Assembly: GCA_964435035.1 (NCBI GenBank) | Contig: CAYSXR010000001.1 | Span: 144,192 to 208,191, forward strand | Source of the DNA: an uncultured Gammaproteobacteria bacterium | GTDB lineage: Bacteria; Patescibacteriota; Patescibacteriia; Magasanikbacterales; UBA922 | Direction: 5' to 3' | Length of the DNA stretch: 64,000 nucleotides | In this document: piece after piece, positions 9,581-55,227 of the stretch | Numbering within the stretch: the first letter of the stretch is position 1 | Layout: every line of letters starts with the position of its first letter | Notes under the pieces: generated by a model | Seen by the model: only the letters and a program-made list of their open reading frames with translations | The model's database searches: none | What the model was told of the DNA's origin: nothing | Made by a program: the position numbers and the translations under genes

Positions 9581-10822
9581 ATGCCTGTTATGAAAATTAT
9601 TGAGATATTTGTGTGGTCAATTATAGTGACACTTGCTTTTGTCTACGCAGTAATTTTTCAGTGGATAATAAATCCACCCACTGTGCGAATGTCCAAGGTG
9701 GTTGCTCCAACTTCAACACCTGAAAATCAATTAGTAGAAAATGCTGAGAAAAAAGAGGGTATATGGGCTTTGCGATGGAAAGATGGTGAAGGTGAGGTAA
9801 TTCTCACAACATCAACAAATAAGAATGCGTGGTTAGGTTATTATCCAGATTCACTTGTTGTGCACTATAAGAAAGAAAACAAAGATCTTGTAGCTTTTTT
9901 CAAAGAGACCATAAGTCTTAAAGATGACACAAATATAATTTCTCATCAGCTTGTTTTGTTTGATGTGCTTACTAAAAAATCGAGTATTATTTTTGAATTA
10001 GAAAAGAAGGAGGGTGTTGTACCGCAGCAATTGGTATTAATTGGTGATACGGTGTACTTCTCTTTTACACGTGGGGAAGATGTGCTTGATAATAGTGTGA
10101 ATTATATCGATCTTTCAGAAAATAACATTTCGGTAAAAAAAATAATGGCTTCGGGTGCGAATCATTTGATTCAAAGATGGGGATATTATTGGTTAGAGGG
10201 TGGGTATGGGCATGCGGGAGCGTATGATAGTACTATGGTTTTTTTTGACACCGTTTCAAAGAAAACGGGTGAAGTCATTATTAGTGGATATGGGGGTGAG
10301 GAAGGATCGGATCTATTGGGTGTGACAAAGGATGGCATGGTTGTAATAGGATTTAAAAAGGAAGTAGGGGAAGAAGGGGGATGGGATATCACTGTTTATA
10401 ATAAGGTAACTACACATTTATTGAATAATGAAAATAAAAATACTGTAACACTCTTTGACGTAAGCGACATGCCGACGAATGTAGAAGATATTTTTTATAG
10501 AGAGGAAGAAAATGACCTATACTTAGTAGGTGATGAAGTGTGGTTATATGATTTTGATACCAAAAATACGGTAAAGATACGTCTCGATCAAAGTATGGTA
10601 GGTTTACGTATAACAAAATTTTTCGAGGGAGGTAGAAAGGTATGTTTGAGCAGTAGTCGATCCTGGAATGTAGGGGTACGCGCAATATGGAATACAGAAA
10701 ATAATTCAGTAGACTATTCTGATGTTTTATCATGCGAATCAAAAGCAGAAGATGAATCTATCAAAGCTCATTCGTTATTGCGTGAAGAGCTACCATTACA
10801 ATTGGAAGTTGTGGAAATATAG
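9581..10822 (+). CDS. Hypothetical membrane-anchored protein (413 aa)
   Basis: N-terminal TM helix and a long ORF with host-like composition. No family recognized. Confidence 0.55.
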   Translation: MPVMKIIEIFVWSIIVTLAFVYAVIFQWIINPPTVRMSKVVAPTSTPENQLVENAEKKEGIWALRWKDGEGEVILTTSTNKNAWLGYYPDSLVVHYKKENKDLVAFFKETISLKDDTNIISHQLVLFDVLTKKSSIIFELEKKEGVVPQQLVLIGDTVYFSFTRGEDVLDNSVNYIDLSENNISVKKIMASGANHLIQRWGYYWLEGGYGHAGAYDSTMVFFDTVSKKTGEVIISGYGGEEGSDLLGVTKDGMVVIGFKKEVGEEGGWDITVYNKVTTHLLNNENKNTVTLFDVSDMPTNVEDIFYREEENDLYLVGDEVWLYDFDTKNTVKIRLDQSMVGLRITKFFEGGRKVCLSSSRSWNVGVRAIWNTENNSVDYSDVLSCESKAEDESIKAHSLLREELPLQLEVVEI

Positions 10823-15238: not shown

Positions 15239-15324
15239 TAGTCGTTGAGGATTTGTTAAGGGGTATTTTGTATATAGAAATGCATTTTTTTGGCTTATTT
15301 TAGGGAAATTATAGTACAAAAGTA

Positions 15325-15353
15325 TTGACAAATTGTCTCACGTGTGATACTAT
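15325..15353 (+). promoter_or_regulatory. Sigma70-type promoter (TTGACA-17-TACTAT) with a perfect palindrome TCACGTGTGA in the spacer
   Basis: attgacaaattgtctcacgtgtgatactat, upstream of the GC-elevated islet genes. Confidence 0.4.
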
Positions 15354-15430
15354 TTTACATTCCAAGTGAAGAGGCGTCTGCCTTTTTACCTCTGGGATAT
15401 AACAAGATCCTTAGGTTATAGGTGTAACTC

Positions 15431-15772
15431 ATGGCTCGTTTGATCGACATGTACTTCACTGCCCCCGTGGTCAACCACTGGACTACCTTCTACGAGAAGG
15501 CGTTCATGGGGGAGCTGATCATGGTTTACATCCATGGGGTGGGACGTCGCTGGGTACTTCTCCAGGACTTTCGCAGTAACGAGGAGGCTAAGAAACTTGA
15601 GTTCAGGGTACAGATTGTGCCGGAGCCGGGTAAAAAAAACCGGGACTCGATACCAAACAGCTGGTTTACTGGCACCTACTCCTGGGAGACCAACGATGGT
15701 TACCTCAAACTGCCGTCGGTTATGCGGCCATTGCCGTCGGTTATCCTCTCAAGCTGGATCAACCACGCCTGA
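15431..15772 (+). CDS. Hypothetical protein (113 aa) in the GC-elevated islet
   Basis: An AGGTG RBS lies 7 nt upstream. Protein-like composition, whereas the overlapping alternative ORF is Arg-rich. No family assignable. Confidence 0.4.
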   Translation: MARLIDMYFTAPVVNHWTTFYEKAFMGELIMVYIHGVGRRWVLLQDFRSNEEAKKLEFRVQIVPEPGKKNRDSIPNSWFTGTYSWETNDGYLKLPSVMRPLPSVILSSWINHA

Positions 15773-15850
15773 GGCAATAGCACACCCGACGCGTGCACAA
15801 GATTTGTTCCCACATGGGCACAAAATCGCGCACGCGTCGGGAACAATCTA

Positions 15851-15882
15851 CCCTATACCATGATTGGTATGGGGTTTTTGTT
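15851..15882 (+). terminator. Rho-independent terminator (10-bp stem ccctatacca/tggtatgggg, loop tgat, T-run)
   Basis: ccctataccatgattggtatggggtttttgttt. It is preceded by larger nested inverted repeats (cccgacgcgtgc ... gcacgcgtcggg). Confidence 0.55.
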
Positions 15883-15975
15883 TACAAAAATATTTTTTAC
15901 ACGTAAAATATCTCACGTTGATTCTGCAATACATAGTGCAGAAATGGCTCCATCGAAAAAGAGGGGGTTCGCAAA

Positions 15976-16392
15976 ATGGTCTACGATAAAAAATACTCGG
16001 TCGTGCACGAATGGCTGAGACGATTCAATCTGCATGAGGTGGAAGGTCTCCTGGAGCTCTACGTTGAGAAGCCCGCTCATACCTCTATGGATATCAAAAA
16101 AGCACACCCGAAGACGTACGGCACTATCTATGGAAGGACCCCGCTGTCCCAGTGGTGGTACCGGTGCTTCGAGTGCGATCCGAATCTCAGGTACGAGATG
16201 GATCTGTACCTCTCGTCTGGAGGAGACACTGCAGTACTCGTCTACTTCGAGGGGGTCGGTGGTGGAAATCCTCCAGCACATCGGATGATCACCTTCACCT
16301 TCGAGGGTCTCCTGATCAAGAGTACGAAGACTGAAGATGTGGACGATCATAGTTCACACATTCGTGGTGCAATCAACCCACGAGCCAACTGA
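15976..16392 (+). CDS. SnoaL/NTF2-like (ketosteroid-isomerase-fold) protein, 138 aa
   Basis: The pattern VVHEWLRRFN...D.EGLLELY...WW..F..DP.L..E......GDTAVLV.FEG.GG......H.MITFTFEGLLI fits the SnoaL_2/NTF2-like fold. RBS AGAGGGGG upstream. Confidence 0.5.
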   Translation: MVYDKKYSVVHEWLRRFNLHEVEGLLELYVEKPAHTSMDIKKAHPKTYGTIYGRTPLSQWWYRCFECDPNLRYEMDLYLSSGGDTAVLVYFEGVGGGNPPAHRMITFTFEGLLIKSTKTEDVDDHSSHIRGAINPRAN

Positions 16393-16538
16393 GTCTCACG
16401 GGGGGCACACTGACAAAAATAGCCCCCCAACCTGTACATATTGGTATATAGCAAGTATCTACAGGTTGGGAGGGAAAATGGGCTATGTTGTGATGCATGT
16501 AGTGCTACCCGATGCGTATCGTATTGATTAGATACAAT

Positions 16539-16573
16539 AAAACTCTGAGTAATTTCAGAGTTTTATTGTTTTT
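16539..16573. terminator. Hairpin terminator (aaaactctga/tcagagtttt) between the islet and tRNA-Lys, possibly bidirectional
   Basis: aaaactctgagtaatttcagagttttattgtttttg. Confidence 0.5.
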
Positions 16574-16574
16574 G

Positions 16575-16647
16575 TGACCCCGGTGGGGATCGAACCCACG
16601 ACCATTGGCTTAAAAGGCCACTGCTCTACCAGCTGAGCTACAGGGTC
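16575..16647 (-). tRNA. tRNA-Lys (anticodon UUU)
   Basis: Manual fold of the reverse complement gives a 7-bp acceptor stem, a GGTTCGATCC T-arm, and anticodon loop CU-UUU-AA. 73 nt, no encoded CCA. Confidence 0.85.
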
Positions 16648-16654
16648 TTAAATT

Positions 16655-16736
16655 AGTTCATAGCTAATAGCAAGAAAGTTCATAGGAAAATACAAATTCG
16701 TATTTCCATTGGCTATCCATCTATTGGCTATGAACT
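16655..16736. repeat. Palindromic intergenic element (arms AGTTCATAGCTAATAG / CTATTGGCTATGAACT); homologous copy at 34224-34298
   Basis: A 16-bp inverted repeat with one mismatch. The internal segment cataggaaaatacaaattcgtat is shared with 34239-34260 (aataggaggaaaatgcgaatcggtac). It lies in the divergent region between tRNA-Lys and the ATPase gene. Confidence 0.5.
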
Positions 16737-16794
16737 ACGAGAGACGCGAATATGATATACTAAGTAAACATAAAAGTCAAGTAAACTTTATCTC

Positions 16795-19470: not shown

Positions 19471-19477
19471 TAATACA

Positions 19478-19549
19478 AAACACCACCTACATCCTCCCTT
19501 TGCTGCTTCAAAATATTTTGGAGCAATAAAGGGTATGCAGGTGGTGTTT
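19478..19549. other. 72-bp imperfect palindrome immediately after the ATPase stop (possible bidirectional terminator or structured element)
   Basis: aaacaccacctacatcc ... ggtatgcaggtggtgttt, with an inner near-palindrome cttcaaaatattttggag. Confidence 0.45.
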
Positions 19550-19582
19550 GAAAACATCCTCCTCATACCTTGTAAAGACTAG

Positions 19583-19783
19583 TCACTCTACGGACTCTCC
19601 TTCGGTAGTGGCTTTCTCCGACTCTGAGTCGGGGTTGGTATCCTGCGGGCGCGCACGAGCGATCGTATCACTCATGGGACGCCGGATACATTTTCCATTT
19701 TTATCGTAGATCCACACTTTGCCGACGCCATTCTCGATCTCAAGGCGCATTGTCTTGCCGTCGGGTCTAGGAAAAAGTCCCAT
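19583..19783 (-). CDS. Small hypothetical protein (66 aa) in a locally GC-elevated segment (about 52% by eye)
   Basis: Good RBS (GAGGTG, 5-nt spacer). Composition differs from the flanking DNA. Confidence 0.4.
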   Translation of the reverse strand: MGLFPRPDGKTMRLEIENGVGKVWIYDKNGKCIRRPMSDTIARARPQDTNPDSESEKATTEGESVE

Positions 19784-19914
19784 AGCTCACCTCGTTGTTG
19801 TGTCGTAGAAAGGACCTATCTCAGACAGTATACTAAAGTAAATAAACTGTAAATAGTATCGTATTGCCCCTTTTCTTCTTTCACGATACACTATGTTCAT
19901 CCTAATTTTTATAT

Positions 19915-38647: not shown

Positions 38648-38776
38648 ACTTCCTCCTTAAAAAAGTTGTATTGGCAGTGCCACGAGGGCGCGCTGTGCTT
38701 AGTAATGTTGCTGCCACGTAAAGTCGCTACGCTCCTACGTGGCACTCAAAGGCGCTCTGAGAATCGCGCCTTTTCG

Positions 38777-39173
38777 TGGAGATGCCGGGAGTCGAACCCG
38801 GGTCTAGACGGGTTACCCCGATACTCTACATGTGTATCGATGTTTGGTGTTTCGCATACGAATATGAAACATCGAAAAATATCGCATGCTATCGCATGAA
38901 TGGTTTCAACTAACTTCCATACGAACAAAGTTAGTCTACGCTCGAACTAGGGTTGGCACCGTGGATCCACCATCGAGTATCGTGGGTACGATGGTCGTAG
39001 TGATTTAGGCTACAACAGAAGCAAAGCTAGGCATACTGAAAGCTTTCGCTACAGTGTTTTTAGCTCGCTCGAACAAGTTTGCACTTGTGGAATTGCCTAT
39101 TTGTTACAGAGACAGGCACTCTGACATGCATATACAAGATAACAGAATCCATCTATCGAAGCCTGTCATCCCC
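38777..39173 (-). ncRNA. ssrA: tmRNA (SsrA), about 397 nt
   Basis: 5' GGGGAUGACAGGCUUCGAUAG... pairs with 3' ...GGUUCGACUCCCGGCAUCUCCA(CG), giving a 7-bp acceptor stem and a T-arm GGUUCGACUCC. It sits directly upstream of smpB. The tag reading frame is not securely assigned. Confidence 0.8.
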
Positions 39174-39198: not shown

Positions 39199-39690
39199 TT
39201 AGTCGTCTCTTCCGTGCTTCAATATTCGTTGGAGCGATCGTTTGCTCTCTCGTTCTTTTATCGTACGGCGCTTGTCATGGGTTTTTTTACCTTTGGCAAT
39301 ACCGATCTCAAGTTTGATTAAAGTTCCCTTAGTATAGAGGGAAAGTGGCACGATTGTCAAGCCTTTTTCCTCGGTTTTTCCGCGTAAATAATTGATTTCT
39401 TTGGTACTCAAAAGTAATTTTCTGGTGGCATCGGGGACATAATGGGGATTGGTCGCGTACCGATAGGCTCCAATATGCATGTTTACGATTGTCGCACTTC
39501 GGCCTCTCACCATCACAAAACTCCCGTCTAATTTGGCACTGCCATTGCGGATAGATTTTACCTCGGCTCCAGTCAATACCAAACCTGCCTCGAGACTCTC
39601 AAGGATTTCATAGTCGAATCGTACTTTTTTATGAGTGGCGAGTGTAGGCATAATCAGTGCCAAGTATAGCGTATTTTTGCTATTTTGCAA
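39199..39690 (-). CDS. smpB: SsrA-binding protein SmpB
   Basis: VRFDYEILE..GLVLTGAEVKS...KLLL conserved core; 163 aa. Confidence 0.9.
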   Translation of the reverse strand: MQNSKNTLYLALIMPTLATHKKVRFDYEILESLEAGLVLTGAEVKSIRNGSAKLDGSFVMVRGRSATIVNMHIGAYRYATNPHYVPDATRKLLLSTKEINYLRGKTEEKGLTIVPLSLYTKGTLIKLEIGIAKGKKTHDKRRTIKERESKRSLQRILKHGRDD

Positions 39691-42220: not shown

Positions 42221-42832
42221 ATGGACCTCCCCATGACTCATTCACCAATGAAACGCCTCGCCAGATCAAAAAAATTGCTTATTGCGGTCGGAATACTCTG
42301 TGGATTGATTGCGGGAGGGGCAACATTAGCATTTCCACTCAAATATCGGGCAGACGCACAGGTTTATATTCTTTCTCAGGCACGTTTTGGAGTTGATCCC
42401 TATACGGTTGCAAAATCAGGAGAACGAATTGCCGAGAATTTGGCACAGATCATGAAGACCGAAGATTTTTATGAAAAAACAAAATCAGAAACCAGCTACG
42501 CAGTAGACTGGAGTTATTTTGAAAACAAGACGCTAAGAGATCGAAAAAAAATGTGGGAGAAAACAATTGATCCAGCGGTAGTGTATGGATCAAGCGTGCT
42601 CACGGTAAGCGCGTATCACGAAGAACCTGCACAGGCAATCGCAATTGCAGGTGCAGCAGCGACTGCTCTCGTCACCAAGACAAGTGAGTACGTAGGTGGT
42701 GATGTATCGATTCGATTGGTGAGTCGCCCTATCGCGACACAGTTTCCGGTAAAACCAAATCCACTCGTGAATGCATTTCTGGGAGCCGGAGTGGGAATAC
42801 TTTTTGCGGCTCTGCTATTACTTAGAAAATAG
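42221..42832 (+). CDS. Wzz/YveK-like polysaccharide chain-length determinant (PCP) protein, TM at both ends (203 aa)
   Basis: N-terminal TM (LLIAVGILCGLIAGG), a periplasmic segment, a proline-rich C-terminal motif (RPIATQFPVKPNP) and a C-terminal TM (GAGVGILFAALLLL). Confidence 0.45.
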   Translation: MDLPMTHSPMKRLARSKKLLIAVGILCGLIAGGATLAFPLKYRADAQVYILSQARFGVDPYTVAKSGERIAENLAQIMKTEDFYEKTKSETSYAVDWSYFENKTLRDRKKMWEKTIDPAVVYGSSVLTVSAYHEEPAQAIAIAGAAATALVTKTSEYVGGDVSIRLVSRPIATQFPVKPNPLVNAFLGAGVGILFAALLLLRK

Positions 42833-46240: not shown

Positions 46241-46416
46241 CATTTTGATATAGAGAAGAAAAATCACTGATAGCAGTCGGTGATTTTTTGTTTTTTTAAG
46301 GTGTTTGGGCTAGAAATGTGCTAAAAAGTATGAGAGTAGTCAAAAGGGGCTACACCCTTTACTTTTTGTCAAAATTTGCATAAAGTACGTTAATGCTTAT
46401 TGTGGCAGGGGTATAC

Positions 46417-46445
46417 TTGACAAAAAGGTATAAATATGCTATAGT
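46417..46445 (+). promoter_or_regulatory. Strong sigma70-type promoter TTGACA-17-TATAGT (cassette type P: cTTGACAaaaaggtataaatatgcTATAGTac)
   Basis: Perfect -35 and a 17-bp spacer. Near-identical cassettes occur at 49347-49375 and 63780-63808. It lies about 210 nt upstream of the first high-GC gene. Confidence 0.55.
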
Positions 46446-46655
46446 ACTGCGTTATTTCAAAAGCCCTACATAGGTCTTCGAAATAGCAATCCAGGGGCCC
46501 CATCAGAGAGGATATGTGTCCCTTCTGATGGAGTCCCTGGTCTAGGAGCTCCCACTGTGGCCCGTTCGGGCAATAGTGAGAGCCTTAGGCTCATTACAAT
46601 CGAAGAAGCTAGAACACGTGCCCCTATGAAAGGGGTGTAAACGAGGAGATCAGAA

Positions 46656-48104
46656 ATGATTGACCGCAACAAGAAGAGCAACAAGAAGAGCACGCCCGTG
46701 AAGGGCGGCGCTGCGGCGAACCCGCAGGCGATGGCAACCGTGGCGTCTCACAAGGACGACACGGCTCAGATCGATGTGGTGGTCGAGACCAATCCCGAGG
46801 CCGACAAGGTCGAGGGTGAGGTCAAGGCCGATGAAGAGGCGAAGGTCGAAGAGACCGTCGCCACCGCCCCGACCGAGAACGTCGAGAAGAGCGAGGAGCC
46901 GGCCGTTGTGGTCGACCCCGAGCCCGAGCTCGAGCAGAAGCGGAACTTCCGTAAGGAAGACCTCCGCCTCCGGTACAACGACAACCCGCAGGTGCTGCTC
47001 ACCTCCGCGGATCTCAGCGAAGAGGACAAGGTCCTCATCGGCGAGATCGCGAGCGAGCAGAACCAGGTCGTCCGCGACTATGCCGCGCTGGCACAGGAGC
47101 TGACCGACGAGAAGGACCAGCTCGAGCAGAAGCTCGACGCGACCAACTCCAAGCTGGGGAACGTCACCAACCTCATCGCGACCACGGTCAAGGAGACCGT
47201 GGGACAGGTGGACAAGGAGACGTCGGCCTTGATCGAAGGTCTGAAGATCGAGATCGAGGGCGTCATCGGCAAGGGTAACGGCGTGAAGAACGCCGTCACG
47301 AAGATCGGGGACGATGTCAACAAGGACATCGGCTCGCTCAAGGGTCAGGTCAACGCCAACGCCAAGTCGGTCAACGACAAGGTCGATGGGATGGCCGCGA
47401 TGCTCGGGAAGATCGACGAGAAGATCTCCGAGATCAAGTCCCCGCCGCCCCCGCAGCAGCCGCCGGCTCAGTCCAGCACCACCCCGTCCTCCGGATCCTC
47501 CGGGTGGCCGTGGGTCGTGGCCGTGGGCATCTTGCTCGCGGCCGTGATCGCGGTCTTCCTCCTGAACAAGGATGTGAAGATCGAGGTCCAGGTGCAGCAG
47601 CCGGCGGTGAACACCGTGAAGGGTGTGGTGCCGCCGGTGGTGGACAACGCTCTCGGGGTGACCTCGCAGCAGGTGACCCCGGGTGGACCGGGGAATCCGA
47701 TCGTGCCCACGGTGGTCGGTGCCACGTCCGAGGATCCCTGCAAGGGGAAGGTCGGTGGGGAGCTCGGGTCGTGTGTCCTTCAGCTGGAGAAGTTCCGGCC
47801 GAAGGGGTTCACTGATGCGCACTGGAACACGGTCGTCGAGACCTTCCAGAACGTCATCATGGTCCCCTTGAGCGTTCCGTTCAAGGACATCAAGCACCAC
47901 GACAAGGCCATCGAGCACAACATGAGGAAAGACGCGGCACTGCAGGCGTGCGTCGACGCATACGTCTTGAAGACGGATGATGTCGAGTCGAACGTCCGGT
48001 GTCAGCGGGCGGTCGATTGTCTGTTCACTTCGGTGGACGAGGCAGCACAGTGCTACATGACGCATACGCGCTCGATCACGGGCGTTTTGGTCACTGTCAA
48101 CTGA
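46656..48104 (+). CDS. Island gene 1: bitopic membrane protein (482 aa) with a cytoplasmic 11-mer-repeat/coiled-coil N-domain, one TM, and an extracytoplasmic Cys-containing C-domain
   Basis: Protein-like composition on the + strand versus R/L/D/G-rich junk on the antisense strand. TM WPWVVAVGILLAAVIAVFLL preceded by a PPPPQQPPAQ linker. Confidence 0.65.
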   Translation: MIDRNKKSNKKSTPVKGGAAANPQAMATVASHKDDTAQIDVVVETNPEADKVEGEVKADEEAKVEETVATAPTENVEKSEEPAVVVDPEPELEQKRNFRKEDLRLRYNDNPQVLLTSADLSEEDKVLIGEIASEQNQVVRDYAALAQELTDEKDQLEQKLDATNSKLGNVTNLIATTVKETVGQVDKETSALIEGLKIEIEGVIGKGNGVKNAVTKIGDDVNKDIGSLKGQVNANAKSVNDKVDGMAAMLGKIDEKISEIKSPPPPQQPPAQSSTTPSSGSSGWPWVVAVGILLAAVIAVFLLNKDVKIEVQVQQPAVNTVKGVVPPVVDNALGVTSQQVTPGGPGNPIVPTVVGATSEDPCKGKVGGELGSCVLQLEKFRPKGFTDAHWNTVVETFQNVIMVPLSVPFKDIKHHDKAIEHNMRKDAALQACVDAYVLKTDDVESNVRCQRAVDCLFTSVDEAAQCYMTHTRSITGVLVTVN

Positions 48105-48159
48105 ACCTCAACCCAACTAGTCCGACCTCCCTCGGGAGGTCGGACACAGGAGAACAGAC

Positions 48160-49095
48160 ATGAAGCAGCTCGTCGCGAAGATCGTGGTTTATTACATCGT
48201 ACTTCTCTCGGCGTCGGCCTTCGGCTCGACGCCGAACCCCGGTGACCAGTTCGACCTGATCCAGGGAGGGATCCCGGCGAAGGTCGAGGTCACGCAGCAG
48301 GAGATCAAGGCGATGGACACGTCCATCGACCAGCTCCTGAAGCGCACCGGCGGTCTCCTCAAGAAGGACGCCGAGCTCAAGAAGGAGCTCGAGGACCTCA
48401 AGAAGGAGCTCGAGGACCTCAAGAGCAAGCTCGACAAGGTGGTGAAGCCGGGTGATCTCACGGTCATCCGAGTGGATCTGGGAAGGTTGTGGACGCAAGT
48501 CAACAACCATGGACAGCGCCTCACCGAGCTCGAGCAGGACGTCGAAGATCTGAAGAGGAGCGACAAGGCTCAGGACGATCGACTCGGTGATCACGACCAG
48601 AAAATCGAGGACATCAACAAGCGCCTCGATCGAGGTCTCGGAGTGAAGTTCGGCATCGGAGCCTATGGCGTCTACGGGACGCAAGGCTCGATCAACGGTG
48701 GAGCTTCGGCTCGGCTGAGGATCCCGCTGTCCGGTGGATGGCAAGCGATCGTCAATGGCGGAGTCGGCGGCAACCATCAGGGAGCTTCAGGATTCGCCGA
48801 TCTGTCGGTCGGCTACCAGTTCGCGAGCGGCATCTACCTGGGGGCAACCCTCGGTATCGACGCCAACTGCGACGGTATGTGCACCAGGCTCCTCACGGAG
48901 ATCTGGGGCGCAGGTCCCGACATCGGCTACCTGTCCGACGATGGACTCTTCATCCGGGCTCGTGTGCTCTTCGGGAGCGAGTGGATCAAGGGTCCGACGA
49001 TGCAGATCGAGTACCCGGATCGTACGGTCTTCAAGACCGACGAGTCCCGGGAGTTCGGCATCTCGGCTTTGATCCAGCTCGGTCACGAGTTCTAG
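48160..49095 (+). CDS. Island gene 2: secreted protein (311 aa) with signal peptide, a KKELEDLKKELEDLK coiled-coil, and a Gly-rich amphipathic beta C-terminal region ending in Phe (possible outer-membrane beta-barrel)
   Basis: Signal peptide LLSASAFG; alternating hydrophobic pattern GVKFGIGAYGVYG...ADLSVGYQFASGIYLGATLGIDA...; terminal ...LGHEF. Confidence 0.6.
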   Translation: MKQLVAKIVVYYIVLLSASAFGSTPNPGDQFDLIQGGIPAKVEVTQQEIKAMDTSIDQLLKRTGGLLKKDAELKKELEDLKKELEDLKSKLDKVVKPGDLTVIRVDLGRLWTQVNNHGQRLTELEQDVEDLKRSDKAQDDRLGDHDQKIEDINKRLDRGLGVKFGIGAYGVYGTQGSINGGASARLRIPLSGGWQAIVNGGVGGNHQGASGFADLSVGYQFASGIYLGATLGIDANCDGMCTRLLTEIWGAGPDIGYLSDDGLFIRARVLFGSEWIKGPTMQIEYPDRTVFKTDESREFGISALIQLGHEF

Positions 49096-49346
49096 ACTTC
49101 AAGATTCGGGGAGTGTCTCTACTCCCCGGACCCCTCACCTCGCCGACTTCAAGGCAGAAGGGATAAGACAATGAGACAAACACTCGAGTAAACGGCGTGG
49201 TCGCACAACGCGGCCCCCAATACTGGAGCATGGGCGATATTTCGAAAGAAATGTCGCCCCTCGCACAGCGTATATCAGTCTCTGGTATGCGATGACGAGA
49301 AAAGCATCTCACGTAAATCCCGACTAAATCGGGACACGTGACAAGC

Positions 49347-49375
49347 TTGACAAACGAGAGTATTTATGCTATACT
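49347..49375 (+). promoter_or_regulatory. Promoter cassette type P (cTTGACAaacgagagtatttatgcTATACTaag) within an AT-rich patch inside the island
   Basis: TTGACA-17-TATACT, highly similar to 46417 and 63780. Confidence 0.5.
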
Positions 49376-49500
49376 AAGCTGTTACAAAATAAAGAAGTGC
49401 CATGGGAAATCTCGATGTAGTCGGGGTATCTATGGTAGATCGTCATGCACTGCATGGTGGTCCATTGAACCTTACAATATATGCGAAATGTATAAAAAGC

Positions 49501-49544
49501 TTGAAAGGCTAGAAAGGCCGGAAAGGCTTGAAATGCTAGAGAAC
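49501..49544 (+). repeat. Tandem 9-mer direct repeats (ttgaaaggc tagaaaggc cggaaaggc ttgaaatgc tagagaac) in the leader of island gene 3
   Basis: Direct reading; about 5 units with core GAAAGGC. Confidence 0.5.
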
Positions 49545-49685
49545 GTATCTTGTGACGTGAAGAAAGAAATTTTCAATAAGAATTTTTTCTTAGCGTCACG
49601 AGGAGTTCTCAGGCGTGAAAACTTCTCGTGTGGTACACGAGGAAGCAACAACAAAACCCCGATTGAATCGGGGAGGAGAAGAGTC

Positions 49686-51452
49686 ATGAAGAAGTTCAAC
49701 AAGTTCCTGTTCGTCGTCATGTTCATCTCGTTCGTCGCGGCCATCACGGGCTGCGCCGATCACGGTGGCGAGACGGTCGTCGTCAAGGGTGACGATGGGG
49801 AGAGCGTCAAGCTCTGCCCCGAGGAGCATCAGTGCTCCTCGGCCGAGTTCTGCAACTCGCAGGGTCTCTGCGTCATCCCCGGTGCCAACGGCACCAACGG
49901 CGAGGACTTCGAGCGATGCTCGAATAGTCGTGGTGACTGTGTCGGTAACGAGCTCTGCAACTCGCAGGGCGTGTGTGTGCTCGAAGGTCCGCAAGGGCCG
50001 GCGGGGGAGTCCTGTACCGTGTCGACGAAGGTCGACGGGTGCTTCTTCCTCTACTGTGGCGCAAGCGTCACGGAGATCTGCGACGGCGAGGACGGTGTGT
50101 CCTGCACGGTCGCAGGGCAGCCGGACGGCAGCGCTCAGGTCGAGTGCTCGGACGGTTCGTTCGCGACCATCCTCCCCGGACAAGACGGCGAGGACGGTCT
50201 CAACGGCACGAGCTGCACGGCCTCGACGGTCAAAGGTTGCCTCGTGGTGACCTGCGGAACGCAGTCGACGGAGATCTGCCCGGAGGATCTTCCGGATCCC
50301 GAGCCGGTCGACGGCTGCCAGAAGGACTCGGACTGCACGGACGGCAGCGAGTGCACCAACGACATCTGCGATCTCAACACCGGCACCTGCCGGTACGTGT
50401 CGCAGGTGTGTGATGACGGCGTCGCCTGCACCAACGACTGGTGTGACACGAACGGCTACTGCCGTTCGACCGCGGACAATGATCAGTGCAGCGGCGGCGA
50501 CTTCTGCTTGCCGACCGGTTACTGGTTTTGGTCCTCGGCGGTGGGTTCTGAGGAACTCGCTGACGGAGGCTGTTACGAGTGCCGCTGGGACTCTGATTGT
50601 GCCGACGGCGACGCGTGTACGGTCGACACCTGCGACGCGGGTGTTTGCAAGAAGGAAACGCGCGAGTGCCCCACGGGTGCGACGTGCGTCGAGTACTCGA
50701 GCAACTACTACGACGACTCGGAGTGGAACTACGTGTGCCAGGACAATCCGTCGTGCAGCAACAACAGCCAGTGCGACGACGGCAAGTACTGGACGACGGA
50801 TGCGTGCGTGGCCGGGGAGTGTGTCTACACCCAGGTGTCGTGCAACGACAACAACGCATGCACCGTGGACACGGTGAACTCGAGTGGGCAGTGCACCTAC
50901 GCCCAGATCTCGTGCGACGATGGCAAATCCGCCACGGTCGACACGTGCTCTGCGAATACGGGGTGCGTACACACGCCGGTGAACACCGGCTGCGAGCACG
51001 ATCTCGATTGCGATGACGTCGACGGTACGACCACGGACCTGTGCGAGGACAACGGGAGCTGTACACATACTCCCAATGCCCAGTGCAAGTCCCTGACGGT
51101 CAAGGTCGGCTGGGCCATCCTGTGGTCGCGCGGTCCCGAGATCGGAACCACCAATGTCCCGATGGGCAACTGGCGTAGCTGCGAGGAAGACGAGGCGGAG
51201 AACTGCCGTACCATGTCGTGGTGCGGTGACGACATCGTGGAGTTCAATGTTCAGCAGATGCCGAACGTGGCAGGTGCCGACTGGCTCGTGAAGAACGAGA
51301 AAGGCGACAGCCCTTGCACGTCGAACGCAGATGCGACCTTGAACTACACGCCCGCTGATCTCTTCGTCGGGGCGACGCCGGTGCAGAAGGGCTGTTCGCT
51401 CTTCTGCGACCCGAACGGGTACACCAACTACACCTGCGATTCCGCGGAGTAG
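49686..51452 (+). CDS. Island gene 3: Cys-rich repeat lipoprotein (588 aa; start at ATG 49686 with a GGAGG RBS)
   Basis: Lipoprotein signal MKKFNKFLFVVMFISFVAAITGC. Many C-x-x-D-x-D-C / C-T-N-D-x-C-D repeats (e.g. CQKDSDCTDGSECTNDICDLNTGTCRY, CDDGVACTNDWCDTNGYC). The ORF track's upstream extension from 49338 is AT-rich non-coding leader. Confidence 0.7.
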   Translation: MKKFNKFLFVVMFISFVAAITGCADHGGETVVVKGDDGESVKLCPEEHQCSSAEFCNSQGLCVIPGANGTNGEDFERCSNSRGDCVGNELCNSQGVCVLEGPQGPAGESCTVSTKVDGCFFLYCGASVTEICDGEDGVSCTVAGQPDGSAQVECSDGSFATILPGQDGEDGLNGTSCTASTVKGCLVVTCGTQSTEICPEDLPDPEPVDGCQKDSDCTDGSECTNDICDLNTGTCRYVSQVCDDGVACTNDWCDTNGYCRSTADNDQCSGGDFCLPTGYWFWSSAVGSEELADGGCYECRWDSDCADGDACTVDTCDAGVCKKETRECPTGATCVEYSSNYYDDSEWNYVCQDNPSCSNNSQCDDGKYWTTDACVAGECVYTQVSCNDNNACTVDTVNSSGQCTYAQISCDDGKSATVDTCSANTGCVHTPVNTGCEHDLDCDDVDGTTTDLCEDNGSCTHTPNAQCKSLTVKVGWAILWSRGPEIGTTNVPMGNWRSCEEDEAENCRTMSWCGDDIVEFNVQQMPNVAGADWLVKNEKGDSPCTSNADATLNYTPADLFVGATPVQKGCSLFCDPNGYTNYTCDSAE

Positions 51453-51670
51453 TCGTACCCACAAACATTTCGTGTAAAAGCTTTGAGTAGCCTAGCTACC
51501 AGACTCAAAGTTCAATCAACGTAGCGGGAGGGGGCACAAGCGTTCATCTGAATTGCGCAAGCGATTCAGTGACGAGTGCCTCCCTCCCATTCCAACATAT
51601 CTTTATCAAAATTCAGAACTCAGATTACAGTGAGAGACTAGTGAGTATTGGTAGAGAGATGTGGGGATGG

Positions 51671-51728
51671 AAAATTCAAAACTTAAAACTTAAAACTCAA
51701 AATTTAGATTTAAGTTGTGAGTTATTAC
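51671..51728. repeat. Copy of the AT-rich AAAACTTAAAACTCAAA hairpin element inside the high-GC island
   Basis: aaaattcaaaacttaaaacttaaaactcaaaatttagatttaagttgtgagttattac. Same unit as 42071-42184. Confidence 0.5.
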
Positions 51729-51795
51729 AAACCCTTTCCATCATTATGATGGTTTCAATTCCCCTCAACCGCGACGACAGAAATGTCACGCGCGG

Positions 51796-51821
51796 AAAAA
51801 ACCCGCGCATGCGGGTTTTTT
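51796..51821. terminator. Rho-independent terminator (cccgcgcatgcggg stem flanked by an A-run and a T-run; potentially bidirectional)
   Basis: ggaaaaaacccgcgcatgcgggttttttaaa. Confidence 0.6.
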
Positions 51822-51913
51822 AAATTCCATTACCTCGGGTATATCGTATAATGATGGTATATCTATGGTAGAGGAATTCTACACGCCAGTTCACAAAAAC
51901 CAGGAGGGGACAC

Positions 51914-52651
51914 ATGTTGGGTATGACGTTTCGTTTGTTTGTTTTCTGTCTCACCGTGTTCACCGCCGCATGCATCGAGGATATGCGGCGGGAGGAAGCG
52001 TCCATGGTCCAGGTCGATACGTCGACTGGCATCATGGATATGGTGGAGGAAGTCAAAGACGTACCAGATTCACGGGTCCGTGATCGGTATGATATCGAAT
52101 TTCCTCCTACAGCCGACGAGTGTGTCGTCGATGAATTCATCGCAGAGGGAAGCCCTTGCGATGATGGCGATGCATGCACGATCGATGTCTGTATCCAGGG
52201 CATGTGTCGTAATCGAGCTATCGACTGCGACGACGGAAATCCCTGGACGGATGACGAGTGCATCGTCGACACTGGGGCGTGCTCCAGTGTACATCGGGTG
52301 ACTCATTTCACCGTTCGCGCGGAGCGTCCGGGAAAGGTGAAGCTTTGGTATGGGAATCACACCGAGCCAGAGACCTATCCCATGAACTCGAGCTTCGAGA
52401 TCCAGAAGATGGATCTCTGCGTCGAGAACCGTGTGCTCACGCTCGCGGTAGAGGACGAAGAGTTCCCGGGAACCTACTGGGGTTGTAACCCTGGCCTTCC
52501 TTCGAAGAGGGAACTCGCAGTCGAGATCGACGGGGTGGACACGCCCGGTTATTTCGCTGCGGATCTCGGATGGGAGGTGCCCAACTCTGCGTGTGGTGGG
52601 AAGGGAGAGGGTGACCTCTACTTCTTGCGGGCGCAACTCGCATGTGACTGA
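51914..52651 (+). CDS. Island gene 4: small Cys-rich lipoprotein (245 aa) sharing the CTxDxC motif and a C-terminal CNPGLPSK domain with genes 3 and 5
   Basis: Signal/lipobox FRLFVFCLTVFTAAC. The segment CDDGDACTIDVCIQGMCRNRAIDCDDGNPWTDDEC. C-terminal GCNPGLPSKRELAVEIDGV aligns with LDCNPGFPSKSTLTVMVNGV of gene 5. CAGGAGGGG RBS. Confidence 0.65.
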   Translation: MLGMTFRLFVFCLTVFTAACIEDMRREEASMVQVDTSTGIMDMVEEVKDVPDSRVRDRYDIEFPPTADECVVDEFIAEGSPCDDGDACTIDVCIQGMCRNRAIDCDDGNPWTDDECIVDTGACSSVHRVTHFTVRAERPGKVKLWYGNHTEPETYPMNSSFEIQKMDLCVENRVLTLAVEDEEFPGTYWGCNPGLPSKRELAVEIDGVDTPGYFAADLGWEVPNSACGGKGEGDLYFLRAQLACD

Positions 52652-52739
52652 TGACCGGGTGTCTCGCGAAGGATAGGATGGCGTATACGCTATGCTGTCC
52701 ACCTTCGCGAGCACCACTAATTCAACAAATAGAATTATA

Positions 52740-52768
52740 TTGACAAAATACTCTTTTCCTGATATGTT
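52740..52768 (+). promoter_or_regulatory. Candidate promoter TTGACA-17-TATGTT for island gene 5
   Basis: attgacaaaatactcttttcctgatatgttg. Confidence 0.4.
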
Positions 52769-52878
52769 GATACGATTGTATCTACGCATATCGGATATCT
52801 AGAGAGGTATCTGGTATGCGCCACTGGAGAATCATTCTCAAGTGTGTATGTTCATTATAATCACATAAGTTTTTTGTT

Positions 52879-52946
52879 CAGCTAGAGGATGGGTGCAGAT
52901 AGAGGTATATGTAACATATCTTGTATCGATAGCCACCCTCTAGCTG
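52879..52946 (+). promoter_or_regulatory. Nested palindromes in the gene-5 leader (outer 13-bp arms cagctagaggatg/caccctctagctg enclosing atatgtaacatat)
   Basis: Direct reading. A second nested set (gtctcgcgaagg ... gcgtatacgc ... ccttcgcgagc) lies at 52660-52712, just after the gene-4 stop. Confidence 0.45.
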
Positions 52947-52998
52947 AGACACAGTGTCACTGCTGGAGTTCAACGGCCTCACAACGGAGGAAGGCCAA

Positions 52999-55041: not shown

Positions 55042-55227
55042 AACTTCTCCTGCGACGACTGCAGGAGCATCTCGAAGTGAACGTGTGATTCGCTTCTGTA
55101 GGTGAATGTTCGAAGACAATCACACAAACCGGGGGAAGTGCGCTCGCTACTACAGCGACCGCTTCCTCCCCTCTACTCTGAATTCAAGTACGATCTTGAG
55201 AATAGAGTAGAAGGGCACGCTAGAATA

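What the first reader, a model, noticed from the sequence alone, without database searches (positions are those of the whole stretch)
15250..16575. 1.3-kb GC-elevated islet wedged between the M23 gene and tRNA-Lys
The region between 15.40 and 16.53 kb is about 52% GC by eye against 38% background. It has its own TTGACA-17-TACTAT promoter with a perfect TCACGTGTGA palindrome in the spacer. It encodes a SnoaL/NTF2-like protein plus an unknown 113-aa protein. It ends in strong terminators with nested inverted repeats and abuts the 3' end of tRNA-Lys, a classic integration target. It looks like a small horizontally acquired cassette, or a remnant of one whose integrase is gone.
Basis: partly seen in the sequence, partly recalled or inferred. 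Interest (0 to 1): 0.55.

Follow-up and report, generated by a model that had tools for sequence, protein, structure and literature searches.

The report
Swappable GC-rich gene slot beside tRNA-Lys
The GC-rich islet is real, but it is not a one-off insertion: it is this genome's version of a small hotspot next to tRNA-Lys that related Magasanikbacteria (ultra-small CPR bacteria) all carry and fill with different tiny GC-rich genes. That makes it an ordinary kind of variable region with a few odd details.

Summary
Bases 15400-16450 are 50% GC against a 40% background. The excess sits in third codon positions: GC3 is 0.72 and 0.61, against 0.33 in host genes. There are two separate one-gene units, each with its own promoter, ORF, long hairpin and terminator, and they end 5 nt from the 3' end of tRNA-Lys. 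One detail is wrong: TCACGTGTGA is not a perfect palindrome.

- There is no integrase or transposase anywhere in the 64 kb.
- No tRNA-Lys fragment is duplicated (no att site).
- Four related Candidatus Magasanikbacteria assemblies carry a GC-rich islet at the same place.

The content differs between relatives. Slot 1 holds orphan family A or an unrelated family B. Slot 2 holds the SnoaL_2 gene, or an unrelated gene on the opposite strand. One relative adds an orotate-phosphoribosyltransferase-like gene.

Similarity inside the islet contradicts similarity in the flanks:
- Relative L006: ATPase 91% identical to the window, SnoaL 38%.
- Relative L001: ATPase 76%, SnoaL 68%.

Breakpoints fall at a conserved double hairpin and beyond the tRNA.

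Best reading: a core-gene-flanked recombination hotspot that exchanges cassettes from a lineage-restricted, GC3-rich gene pool. The protein functions remain unknown. Interest is modest.

The parts
15325..15353 (+). Promoter P1 (TTGACA-17-TGn-TACTAT) of the slot-1 unit
   Evidence: Consensus scan scores 10/12 with a TG extension. TTGACA-17-(TGC)-10 recurs at the homologous place in L006, L010 and L001. The left homology breakpoint with the closest relative lies just upstream, at about 15237.
15431..15772 (+). ORF1, 113 aa, orphan 'family A' protein (slot-1 cargo)
15785..15841 (+). Hairpin A: long imperfect hairpin. The outer stem CCGACGC/GCGTCGG is invariant in four genomes and is a mosaic breakpoint.
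   Evidence: Inverted repeat I10 has 12-nt perfect arms. The fold with hairpin B has z = -8.9. The structure is conserved in window, L001, L006 and L010. Homology between window and L001 begins in its 3' arm, and L001-L006 similarity is confined to hairpins A and B. It is single-copy: the covariance model finds no other copy in 123 kb. It has no attC core motifs.
15850..15885 (+). Hairpin B plus T-run: intrinsic terminator of the slot-1 unit
   Evidence: Terminator scan. Nine of its 11 stem pairs show compensatory changes across the four genomes.
15881..15909 (+). Promoter P2 (TTTACA-17-TAAAAT) of the slot-2 unit
   Evidence: Consensus scan scores 10/12. Both hexamers are identical in L001.
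15922..15943 (+). Small 5'-UTR hairpin before ORF2
   Evidence: Inverted repeat I23. L001 keeps it with a changed pair, UGCA/UGCA becoming UGCG/CGCA. Fold significance is weak, z = -1.65.
15976..16392 (+). ORF2, 138 aa, SnoaL_2 / NTF2-like protein (slot-2 cargo)
   Evidence: Pfam SnoaL_2 scores 23.9 bits, below the gathering score of 27. The L006 orthologue scores 37.9 bits, above it. A three-sequence profile hits PDB 3h3h, a SnoaL-like protein, at E 3e-8. GC3 is 0.61. Against L001: dN/dS 0.35 and dS 0.66, while flanking genes have dS 1.6-2.2. The AF2 model is unusable at pLDDT 44.
16400..16473 (+). G-run plus hairpin C (CCCCCCAACCTGT...ACAGGTTGGGAGG) 3' of ORF2
   Evidence: Inverted repeat I2 has 18-nt arms. 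The stem base CCCCCAAYC/GGTTGGGRGG is kept even in the 38%-identical L006 cassette.
16534..16569 (.). Terminator shared by the converging slot-2 unit and tRNA-Lys
   Evidence: 15-nt perfect arms (I3). Terminator scan. The hairpin arms and loop are identical in L001.
16574..16647 (-). tRNA-Lys(UUU), the right anchor of the hotspot
   Evidence: ARAGORN and Rfam, 70.4 bits. Identical in L001 and one substitution in L006. Present at the same place in L005, L006, L007 and L010.
16648..16745 (-). About 90-nt inverted-repeat insert in the tRNA-Lys leader. It is shared with L001 but absent from L006 and marks the right-hand mosaic breakpoint.
   Evidence: Inverted repeat I1. Three-way alignment and sliding identity.
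16752..16780 (-). Promoter of tRNA-Lys (TTGACT-17-TATCAT), inside the block conserved in all relatives
   Evidence: Consensus scan scores 10/12. The block ACGCGAATATGATATACTA...AAAAGTCAAGTAAACTTT is conserved in L001, L005 and L006.

Best explanation
The islet is one allele of a small variable-gene hotspot that the Candidatus Magasanikbacteria clade keeps between the M23/LTD surface-protein gene and tRNA-Lys.

Layout:
- The locus has a conserved scaffold: promoter P1, the double hairpin A+B, and tRNA-Lys with its promoter.
- Between these anchors lie two slots.
- Each slot holds a self-contained one-gene unit: a sigma-70-type promoter, a small ORF of about 110-140 aa with GC-rich third codon positions, a long GC-rich hairpin, and an intrinsic terminator.
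- In this window, slot 1 holds an orphan alpha+beta protein (family A) and slot 2 holds a SnoaL_2/NTF2-like protein. The two units read towards tRNA-Lys and share its terminator.

Shown: different, unrelated genes occupy the same slots in sister genomes, and similarity inside the islet disagrees with similarity in the flanking core genes.

Inferred: cargo is exchanged among related lineages by homologous recombination anchored in the conserved scaffold and flanks. A tRNA-targeting integrase is not involved.

Inferred: the GC3-rich codon usage marks a separate, lineage-restricted accessory gene pool of unknown source.

Guess: the proteins are cytoplasmic accessory factors, either small-molecule binding or enzymatic (NTF2-like) or involved in conflict. 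They act independently and not as a cognate pair.
For: - Same position in four relatives, all with GC-rich islets of 50-62% GC: L001/L007, L006, L005 and L010.
- Unrelated cargo in slot 1: family A in window, L006 and L010; family B in L001, which gives no BLASTP alignment to family A.
- Unrelated cargo in slot 2: SnoaL_2 on the + strand in window, L001 and L006; a 'WELCPGAL' family on the - strand in L005 and L010. L010 carries an extra pyrE-like gene.
- Profile comparisons show the families are unrelated to each other.
- Every islet gene has GC3 0.59-0.80, against 0.26-0.36 in host genes.
- Incongruence. By flanking genes the window is closest to L006 (86-91%), then L005 (87%), L001 (64-76%) and L010 (59-64%). 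Yet SnoaL is 68% identical to L001 and 38% to L006, and gene 1 is 49.5% identical to L010 and 28.6% to L006.
- Sliding identity places the switches at about 15237, about 15835-15872 (hairpins A and B) and about 16745.
- SnoaL dS is 0.66 against L001, while the flanks have dS 1.6-2.2.
- Hairpins A and B are structurally conserved with 13 compensated pairs.
- No integrase or transposase. No att repeat.
- Published work reports genomic islands in Patescibacteria, with most transfers occurring between Patescibacteria (PMC12455944).
Against: - Only five genomes or contigs were available. No formal phylogenetic or recombination test was run.
- Window-L001 SnoaL identity (68%) lies within the range of the flanks (63-76%), so part of the pattern could reflect acceleration or replacement in L006 alone.
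- Strong GC3 bias can depress dS estimates.
- Homologous recombination at the anchors is inferred from where the breakpoints fall. It was not observed.
- The invariant stem sequence of hairpin A hints at a sequence-specific factor, which this explanation does not need.
- The source of the GC-rich pool is unknown. There are no hits in viral contigs, plasmids, phages or JGI metagenomes.
- No function was established for either protein.
Confidence: 0.6

Rival explanations
1. Ancestral, vertically inherited locus. Under this reading the genes are old residents that evolve fast. Their high GC3 is maintained locally, by recombination-associated GC bias or by selection on synonymous sites, and nothing is acquired horizontally.
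For: - The islet occupies the same position in all relatives.
- Window-L001 SnoaL identity of 68% is comparable to the flanking M23 (63%) and ATPase (76%).
- GC1 and GC2 of islet genes are near host values, and only GC3 is extreme.
- All homologues come from close relatives.
- A positive link between recombination rate and GC content is documented in bacteria, though its mechanism is debated (PMC11879095).
Against: - Unrelated protein families, and opposite gene orientation, occupy the same slot in sister genomes.
- L006 is the nearest relative by flanks but the most distant in both islet genes.
- SnoaL dS is about a third of flank dS.
- From my own knowledge, reported recombination-associated GC effects in bacteria are a few percent. 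The shift here is about 35 GC3 points.
Confidence: 0.15
2. Remnant of a classical integrative element. Under this reading a phage or island integrated at the 3' end of tRNA-Lys via a tyrosine integrase, then lost its integrase and most of its genes.
For: - The islet is adjacent to the 3' end of tRNA-Lys and has atypical composition.
- In L005 a 14-nt duplicate of the tRNA-Lys 5' end flanks a 77-nt insert on the other side of the tRNA. This shows that tRNA-associated insertions do happen at this locus.
Against: - No repeat of the tRNA 3' part: the best match is 9 nt, equal to the null.
- No integrase in the 64 kb window or in the related loci examined.
- No empty site in any relative.
- The islet has host-type promoters and a scaffold conserved across species that differ by 25-40% in flanking proteins.
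- No phage-family hits for the window's islet proteins or the other small cassette proteins.
Confidence: 0.1
3. Hairpin-directed, site-specific cassette exchange, working like an integron. Under this reading hairpin A (and perhaps hairpin C) is a recombination site recognised by an unidentified recombinase encoded elsewhere, and the cassettes move as units bounded by these hairpins.
For: - Hairpin A's outer stem sequence is invariant in four genomes, while the neighbouring terminator hairpin B covaries freely.
- Mosaic breakpoints fall in or next to hairpin A. L001 and L006 share about 84% identity there, with 25-35% on either side.
- The base of hairpin C is also conserved in sequence across SnoaL cassettes that are only 38% identical.
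Against: - No attC core motifs (RYYYAAC / GTTRRRY) on either strand in any of the four copies.
- No integron integrase or other recombinase in the window.
- The cassettes carry their own promoters.
- There is only one copy of hairpin A per locus and none elsewhere in 123 kb searched.
- Conserved hairpins can equally be RNA processing or stability elements.
Confidence: 0.08
4. A two-gene toxin-antitoxin or toxin-immunity module. Under this reading ORF1 and the SnoaL-like protein are a cognate pair.
For: - Two small adjacent genes in a variable region.
- NTF2-like folds are used by some immunity proteins (my own knowledge).
Against: - Each gene has its own promoter and terminator.
- The partners assort independently: A+SnoaL, B+SnoaL and A+W.
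- No PADLOC or Pfam toxin or immunity hits.
- The structural match is weak, and the model is only of moderate confidence.
Confidence: 0.04

Closest known systems
Chromosomal hotspots of gene exchange flanked by core genes, often next to tRNA genes (as described by Oliveira, Touchon, Cury and Rocha, 2017; cited from my own knowledge)
   Same: The same pair of core flanks is kept in several species while the gene content between them differs. A tRNA sits at the border. There are no self-mobility genes. Exchange is best explained by homologous recombination in conserved flanks.
   Different: It is very small (about 1.3 kb, two one-gene slots). It has an internal conserved scaffold of promoter and double hairpin. 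All alternative cargos share a strong GC3 excess in an AT-rich CPR genome. The cargo families are orphans restricted to this clade.
tRNA-targeting genomic islands and prophage remnants
   Same: It lies at the 3' end of a tRNA gene and has atypical base composition.
   Different: It has no integrase and no direct repeat of the tRNA 3' end. No empty site occurs in relatives. It has host-type promoters and a scaffold conserved across species.
Integron cassette arrays and attC clusters lacking an integrase (CALINs)
   Same: Short ORFs are each followed by an imperfect hairpin of about 55-60 nt. Content is variable at a fixed locus.
   Different: It has no R''/R' core motifs and no IntI. The cassettes have their own promoters and terminators. 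There are only two slots, and one cargo type is inverted.
SnoaL_2 / NTF2-like superfamily (Pfam PF12680; PDB 3h3h)
   Same: ORF2 and its orthologues match the SnoaL_2 profile and a solved SnoaL-like protein over about 85-100 residues.
   Different: The window protein itself scores below Pfam's gathering threshold. No catalytic residues or ligand can be assigned. The subfamily is known only from three Magasanikbacteria genomes.
Genomic islands reported in Patescibacteria (PMC12455944)
   Same: Islands occur in CPR genomes, and most inferred exchange is between Patescibacteria. A restriction-modification system has been inserted nearby in relative L006.
   Different: That study describes larger islands predicted by composition tools. 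It does not describe a conserved mini-locus with swappable single-gene slots.

Membership tests
Core-gene-flanked recombination hotspot | The same flanking core genes in several genomes, with different gene content between them | tested here: met
   M23/LTD (or its remnant) and tRNA-Lys/ATPase flank the islet in window, L001 and L006; L010 shows M23 and the tRNA before its contig ends, and L005 shows only the tRNA/ATPase side. Cargo differs between them.
Core-gene-flanked recombination hotspot | Similarity of the content is incongruent with similarity of the flanks | tested here: met
   Pairwise identities and sliding identity agree. Only five loci were available and no formal tree test was run.
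Core-gene-flanked recombination hotspot | No self-mobility genes in or next to the variable segment | tested here: met
   Pfam scans of nearly all window ORFs of 120 aa or more, plus the small islet ORF1, and of the islet genes in relatives found none.
tRNA-targeting integrative island | Integrase (tyrosine or serine recombinase) gene at one end | tested here: not met
   No recombinase domain in the window ORFs scanned.
tRNA-targeting integrative island | Direct repeat of the tRNA 3' part at the distal end (attL/attR) | tested here: not met
   The best local match is 9 nt; the shuffle mean is 8.7 +/- 1.0 with a maximum of 12.
tRNA-targeting integrative island | Empty site in close relatives | tested here: not met
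   All four relatives carry a GC-rich islet at this place.
tRNA-targeting integrative island | Adjacent to the tRNA 3' end, with atypical composition | tested here: met
Integron gene cassette / attC | R'' (RYYYAAC) and R' (GTTRRRY) core sites bounding an imperfect hairpin | tested here: not met
   A regular-expression search on both strands of hairpin A in four genomes gave no match.
Integron gene cassette / attC | Integron integrase nearby, or arrays of several attC sites | tested here: not met
   No IntI-like protein. Hairpin A is single-copy.
Integron gene cassette / attC | Promoterless ORFs expressed from a common Pc promoter | tested here: not met
   Each unit has its own promoter-like site and terminator. 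P2 is conserved in L001.
SnoaL_2 (PF12680), NTF2-like superfamily | Score at or above Pfam's gathering threshold | tested here: inconclusive
   Window ORF2 scores 23.9 bits against 27. The 38%-identical L006 orthologue scores 37.9 bits.
SnoaL_2 (PF12680), NTF2-like superfamily | Profile similarity to a solved SnoaL-like structure | tested here: met
   The profile of three orthologues against PDB 3h3h gives E 3.3e-8 over query positions 10-93.
SnoaL_2 (PF12680), NTF2-like superfamily | Alpha+beta cone fold (three helices packed on a curved sheet) | tested here: inconclusive
   The AF2 model from a two-sequence alignment has pLDDT 44 and is unusable.
Type II toxin-antitoxin or toxin-immunity pair | Co-transcribed adjacent genes whose partners co-vary | tested here: not met
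   The units have separate promoters and terminators. Partners assort independently across genomes. No PADLOC hits.

The most novel reading that the evidence does not exclude
Hairpin A (and possibly hairpin C) may be the recognition site of an as yet unknown sequence-specific factor that moves single-gene cassettes in and out of a fixed chromosomal dock in CPR bacteria. That would be an integron-like exchange system with no attC motifs and no known integrase, drawing on a GC-rich cassette pool. Some of the cargo may serve as orphan immunity or anti-conflict proteins for these episymbionts.
Probability: 0.1. Interest if true: 0.7.

Novelty: new member of a known kind. Interest (0 to 1): 0.35.

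Why it matters
CPR/Patescibacteria have tiny genomes, and it is poorly understood how they gain and swap genes. This locus is a compact, well-delimited example of gene exchange within the clade at a fixed place, without any mobile-element machinery.

It also shows that a GC-rich patch in a CPR genome need not be contamination or a recent foreign insertion. Here the GC3 excess is a stable hallmark of a whole set of alternative accessory genes.

The locus offers three orphan protein families and a conserved hairpin as concrete targets for follow-up. As it stands it is a new example of a known phenomenon.

Tried and rejected
- att site: local alignment of the tRNA-Lys 3' part, in both orientations, against 14.9-16.57 kb and the whole window found nothing above chance.
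- Known RNAs: Rfam at E <= 1 on 14.8-17.0 kb, and at gathering threshold on the whole window, found only the tRNAs and tmRNA.
- Wider homologues:
  - Three word-index searches found only self and one relative.
  - The full HMMER search of 1.84 billion representatives with ORF1 found one true relative, P0004. It also hit a 1503-aa repeat protein, P0005, through a short motif repeated three times. I regard that hit as spurious.
- Mobile-element origin:
  - IMG/VR scans with SnoaL, family A and W-family profiles found nothing.
  - tblastn against plasmids and phages found nothing.
  - PHROGs and PADLOC gave no hit for the small proteins.
- JGI metagenomes: neither the SnoaL profile nor the exact tRNA-Lys sequence matched.
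- Structure:
  - The ORF2 model was unusable at pLDDT 44.
  - The afdb50 library was unavailable.
- Relationships between cargo families: hhalign found none.
- Paralogues elsewhere in the window or the loci: none.
- attC motifs in hairpin A: none.
- Mini-ORF after hairpin C (MGYVVM...): rejected as a conserved gene, because the reading frame and length are not kept in L001 or L006.
- Shared operator 'TCTCACGT' in P1 and P2: not conserved in the P1 of relatives, so it was dropped.
- Big-island protein look-up: no exact record was found.
Full report
**1. The observation**

Composition. A 300-bp sliding profile shows GC rising from about 34-38% to 51-54% between about 15.40 and 16.45 kb, with a dip to about 44-46% at 15.70-16.15 kb. 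Over 15400-16450 the GC content is 50.1%. The window outside the two GC-rich regions is 40.0% GC, and equally long windows have sd 2.3% and never exceed 47.4%.

Genes and RNAs. The region contains ORF1 (15431-15772, 113 aa) and ORF2 (15976-16392, 138 aa). tRNA-Lys(UUU) lies on the minus strand at 16574-16647 with its 3' end facing the islet.

Codon position. The GC excess is almost entirely in third codon positions.
- ORF1 GC3 is 0.72 and ORF2 GC3 is 0.61.
- Thirty-one host genes have mean GC3 0.326 (sd 0.044).
- The z-scores are 9.0 and 6.5.
- GC1 and GC2 are host-like.
This periodicity also argues that both ORFs really are coding.

Signals.
- Terminators lie at 15850-15875 and 16534-16569.
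- Consensus promoter matches are no more frequent here than in shuffles (4 found vs 4.5 expected). Their credibility comes from conservation in relatives (section 2).
- TCACGTGTGA is not a perfect palindrome.
- So the locus is two separate one-gene units and not one operon.

**2. Relatives**

Protein searches.
- Word-index searches of 5.8 billion proteins found only the window's own proteins and one 67%-identical SnoaL homologue.
- A full HMMER search of 1.84 billion representatives with ORF1 added one 49%-identical protein, P0004.

Loci recovered. Fetching the encoding contigs and scanning GTDB species genomes with the neighbouring P-type ATPase gave four related loci. The record titles of L005 and L007 place them in Candidatus Magasanikbacteria.
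- L001/L007: JBPOJQ010000004.
- L006: CAYUTO010000002. It is labelled Gammaproteobacteria, but its ATPase and two partial flanking proteins are 86-91% identical to the window's.
- L005: DAORJA010000071.
- L010: a Logan contig from SRR12404947.

Shared position. The GC-rich islet adjoins tRNA-Lys in every locus. The tRNA-Lys/ATPase side is seen in L001, L005 and L006. The M23/LTD gene, or its remnant, is seen in L001, L006 and L010. Both short contigs (L005, L010) end within or just beyond the islet. No empty site was seen.

**3. The content varies**

| Locus | Slot 1 | Slot 2 | Extra |
|---|---|---|---|
| Window | family A (ORF1) | SnoaL_2, + strand | none |
| L006 | family A | SnoaL_2, + strand | none |
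| L001 | family B (110 aa) | SnoaL_2, + strand | none |
| L010 | family A | 'WELCPGAL' family, - strand | pyrE-like gene, - strand |
| L005 | not seen (contig ends) | 'WELCPGAL' family, - strand | not seen |

- ORF1 is 49% identical to the L010 family A gene and 27% identical to the L006 one (E 5e-7).
- Family B gives no BLASTP alignment to family A.
- The two 'WELCPGAL' proteins are about 113 aa and 46% identical to each other.
- The extra gene in L010 is orotate-phosphoribosyltransferase-like.
- Profile-profile comparisons show the families are unrelated.
- Every one of these genes has GC3 between 0.59 and 0.80, whatever its family, strand or host genome. Host genes have GC3 0.26-0.36.

**4. 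Mosaic structure**

| Comparison with the window | L006 | L005 | L001 | L010 |
|---|---|---|---|---|
| Flanking proteins (pheT, M23, ATPase) | 86-91% | 87% | 64-76% | 59-64% |
| SnoaL | 38% | n/a | 68% | n/a |
| Gene 1 (family A) | 28.6% | n/a | unrelated | 49.5% |

Inside the islet the order of similarity is reversed relative to the flanks.

Breakpoints. A three-way alignment and 60-column sliding identity locate the switches.
- Left of about 15237 the window follows L006.
- From the 3' arm of hairpin A or hairpin B (about 15835-15872) to about 16745 the window follows L001 at 73-97% identity, against 35-62% to L006. This stretch includes SnoaL, its UTRs, tRNA-Lys and a 90-nt inverted-repeat insert in the tRNA leader that L006 lacks.
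- Right of about 16745 the window is about equally similar to L006 and L001 (87% and 85%).

Synonymous divergence. SnoaL dS between window and L001 is 0.66, and third-position identity is 0.66. The flanking genes have dS 1.6-2.2 and third-position identity of about 0.49. SnoaL dN/dS is 0.35.

Caveats. Only five loci were available. L006 is the odd one out in both genes. GC3 bias can lower dS. The presence of unrelated families and opposite orientation in the same slots does not depend on these caveats.

**5. The scaffold**

Hairpins A and B. Between the two units lies a double hairpin.
- Hairpin A is 15785-15841 and has 12-bp perfect outer arms.
- Hairpin B is the terminator at 15850-15875.
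- Each genome's copy folds far better than shuffles, z about -9.
- On a four-genome alignment, 13 of 31 pairs show compensatory changes, mostly in hairpin B.
- The outer stem of hairpin A (CCGACGC/GCGTCGG) is invariant.
- L001 and L006 share about 84% identity across the hairpins, with unrelated sequence on both sides.
- A covariance model finds no further copy in the window or in any locus, 123 kb in total.
- Hairpin A lacks integron attC core motifs.

Hairpin C. A second long hairpin follows SnoaL at 16423-16473. Its base sequence (CCCCCAAYC/GGTTGGGRGG) is kept even in the 38%-identical L006 cassette.

Promoter P1. TTGACA-17-(TGn)-10 is recognisable in all four loci that include it.

tRNA-Lys promoter. 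On the minus strand it lies at 16780-16752, inside the block conserved in all relatives.

**6. What it is not**

- Not an integrative element. There is no repeat of the tRNA 3' part: the best match is 9 nt, against a null of 8.7 +/- 1.0.
- No mobility genes. No integrase, transposase or other recombinase domain turned up in the window ORFs scanned, which were nearly all ORFs of 120 aa or more plus the small islet ORF1.
- No match to known mobile elements. There were no hits in IMG/VR, plasmids or phages, and no PHROGs or PADLOC hits for the small islet proteins.
- No known RNA family beyond the tRNA.
- Not an assembly artefact. Identical ORFs occur in contigs from two other sequencing runs, and the architecture recurs in independent assemblies.

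**7. The proteins**

ORF2.
- It belongs to the SnoaL_2/NTF2-like superfamily on sequence grounds.
- The window protein is just below Pfam's threshold at 23.9 bits against 27.
- The L006 orthologue is above it at 37.9 bits.
- A three-sequence profile matches PDB 3h3h at E 3e-8.
- The structure model was unusable.

ORF1.
- The moderate-confidence model (pLDDT 72) is an alpha+beta domain.
- I leave its fold unassigned.

Relationship between the two.
- I saw no evident signal peptide or transmembrane segment in either sequence; no predictor was run.
- The units are separately transcribed, and their partners assort independently across genomes. This argues against a cognate toxin-antitoxin or toxin-immunity pair.

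**8. Best explanation and rivals**

Best explanation, confidence 0.6.
- The islet is a conserved, core-gene-flanked hotspot with two slots.
- Its self-contained cassettes are exchanged among related Magasanikbacteria.
- The exchange is most simply explained by homologous recombination in the conserved scaffold and flanks.
- The cargo comes from a lineage-restricted, GC3-rich accessory gene pool.
- This agrees with published evidence that most transfers into Patescibacteria come from other Patescibacteria (PMC12455944).

Rivals.
- Pure vertical descent with fast evolution and locally maintained GC3: 0.15. A link between recombination rate and GC content is documented in bacteria but its cause is debated (PMC11879095). 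From my own knowledge the known effect sizes are far smaller than the 35-point GC3 shift seen here.
- Hairpin-directed, site-specific exchange: 0.08.
- A toxin-antitoxin or toxin-immunity pair: 0.04.

**9. Novelty and verdict**

- Variable regions bordered by core genes and tRNAs are well known, so this is a new member of that kind.
- Mildly unusual features:
  - the miniature size;
  - the internal scaffold with a sequence-invariant hairpin;
  - the uniform GC3 excess of all alternative cargos in an AT-rich CPR genome;
  - three orphan protein families.
- Interest is 0.35.

Noticed in passing
window 46400-55350: A much larger GC-rich block, 59-61% GC with peaks of 69%, against a 40% background. 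Its plus-strand ORFs have GC3 0.77-0.88 (0.65 for the shortest, 51914-52651). They lie at 46656-48104, 48160-49095, 49338-51452, 51914-52651 and 52954-55041. Some have hydrophobic, signal-like N-termini, and they contain thrombospondin type-3 and Dicty_CTDC repeats, so they look like secreted or surface repeat proteins. The block sits between polysaccharide genes: Wzz at 42221-42832, a GT4 glycosyltransferase at 55417-56493, and Wzy_C at 56501-57976. An exact-protein look-up of one ORF found no other record.
   Followed up: partly
L006 2198-6546: In the closest relative, most of the M23/LTD gene is gone. Only a 118-aa C-terminal remnant is left, 86% identical to the window. In its place are a GC3-rich (0.70) B12-binding radical-SAM gene and an AT-rich Eco47II-type restriction endonuclease plus C5-methyltransferase pair. 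The whole pheT-to-tRNA-Lys interval is therefore plastic.
   Followed up: partly
L005 589-693: An exact 14-nt duplicate of the tRNA-Lys 5' end plus 2 nt (AGCTACAGGGTCAT, at 589-602 and 680-693) brackets a 77-nt insert between the tRNA and its promoter. It looks like a target duplication or att-like scar on the 5' side of the tRNA.
   Followed up: no
window 16648-16745: A roughly 90-nt insert with 17-nt inverted-repeat ends (TAGTTCATAGCTAATAG / CTATTGGCTATGAACTA) lies in the tRNA-Lys 5' leader. L001 shares it; L006 lacks it, and L005 has a different insert there. It may be a miniature mobile element or a leader structure.
   Followed up: partly
L006 (CAYUTO010000002.1): The public record is titled 'uncultured Gammaproteobacteria bacterium'. 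However, its ATPase, pheT C-terminal part and M23 remnant are 86-91% identical to this window and 72-76% to a Magasanikbacteria MAG. The taxonomic label is probably wrong.
   Followed up: no
window 16466-16532: A strong Shine-Dalgarno-like GGGAGGG, sequestered in the 3' arm of hairpin C, is followed by a mini-ORF (MGYVVMHVVLPDAYRID). L001 keeps MGYVVM and then diverges; L006 has only MVMLLQ. It is probably not a conserved peptide. The 5' G-run at 16400-16405 could pair alternatively with the C-run of hairpin C.
   Followed up: partly
window 9581-10822: A 413-aa ORF with no Pfam hit lies between pheT and the M23 operon. L001 has no counterpart there. L010 has a 36%-identical homologue at the same place. 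This is another variable gene upstream of the hotspot.
   Followed up: no
window 19476-19825: A 350-bp patch of 49% GC (peak 54%) lies in the 445-bp spacer between the ATPase and pyruvate kinase genes. No ORF of 120 aa or more and no Rfam family was found there.
   Followed up: no
window 15431-15772: The exact ORF1 protein is on record only from Logan assemblies and not from the NCBI annotation of the same genome, whereas ORF2 is in both. ORF1 is apparently unannotated, or called differently, in the deposited MAG.
   Followed up: no
window 38776-39173: The tmRNA has a long predicted tag peptide, ANLFERAKNTVAKAFSMPSFASVVA. SmpB lies just past the tmRNA gene, on the same (minus) strand, at 39199-39690.
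   Followed up: no
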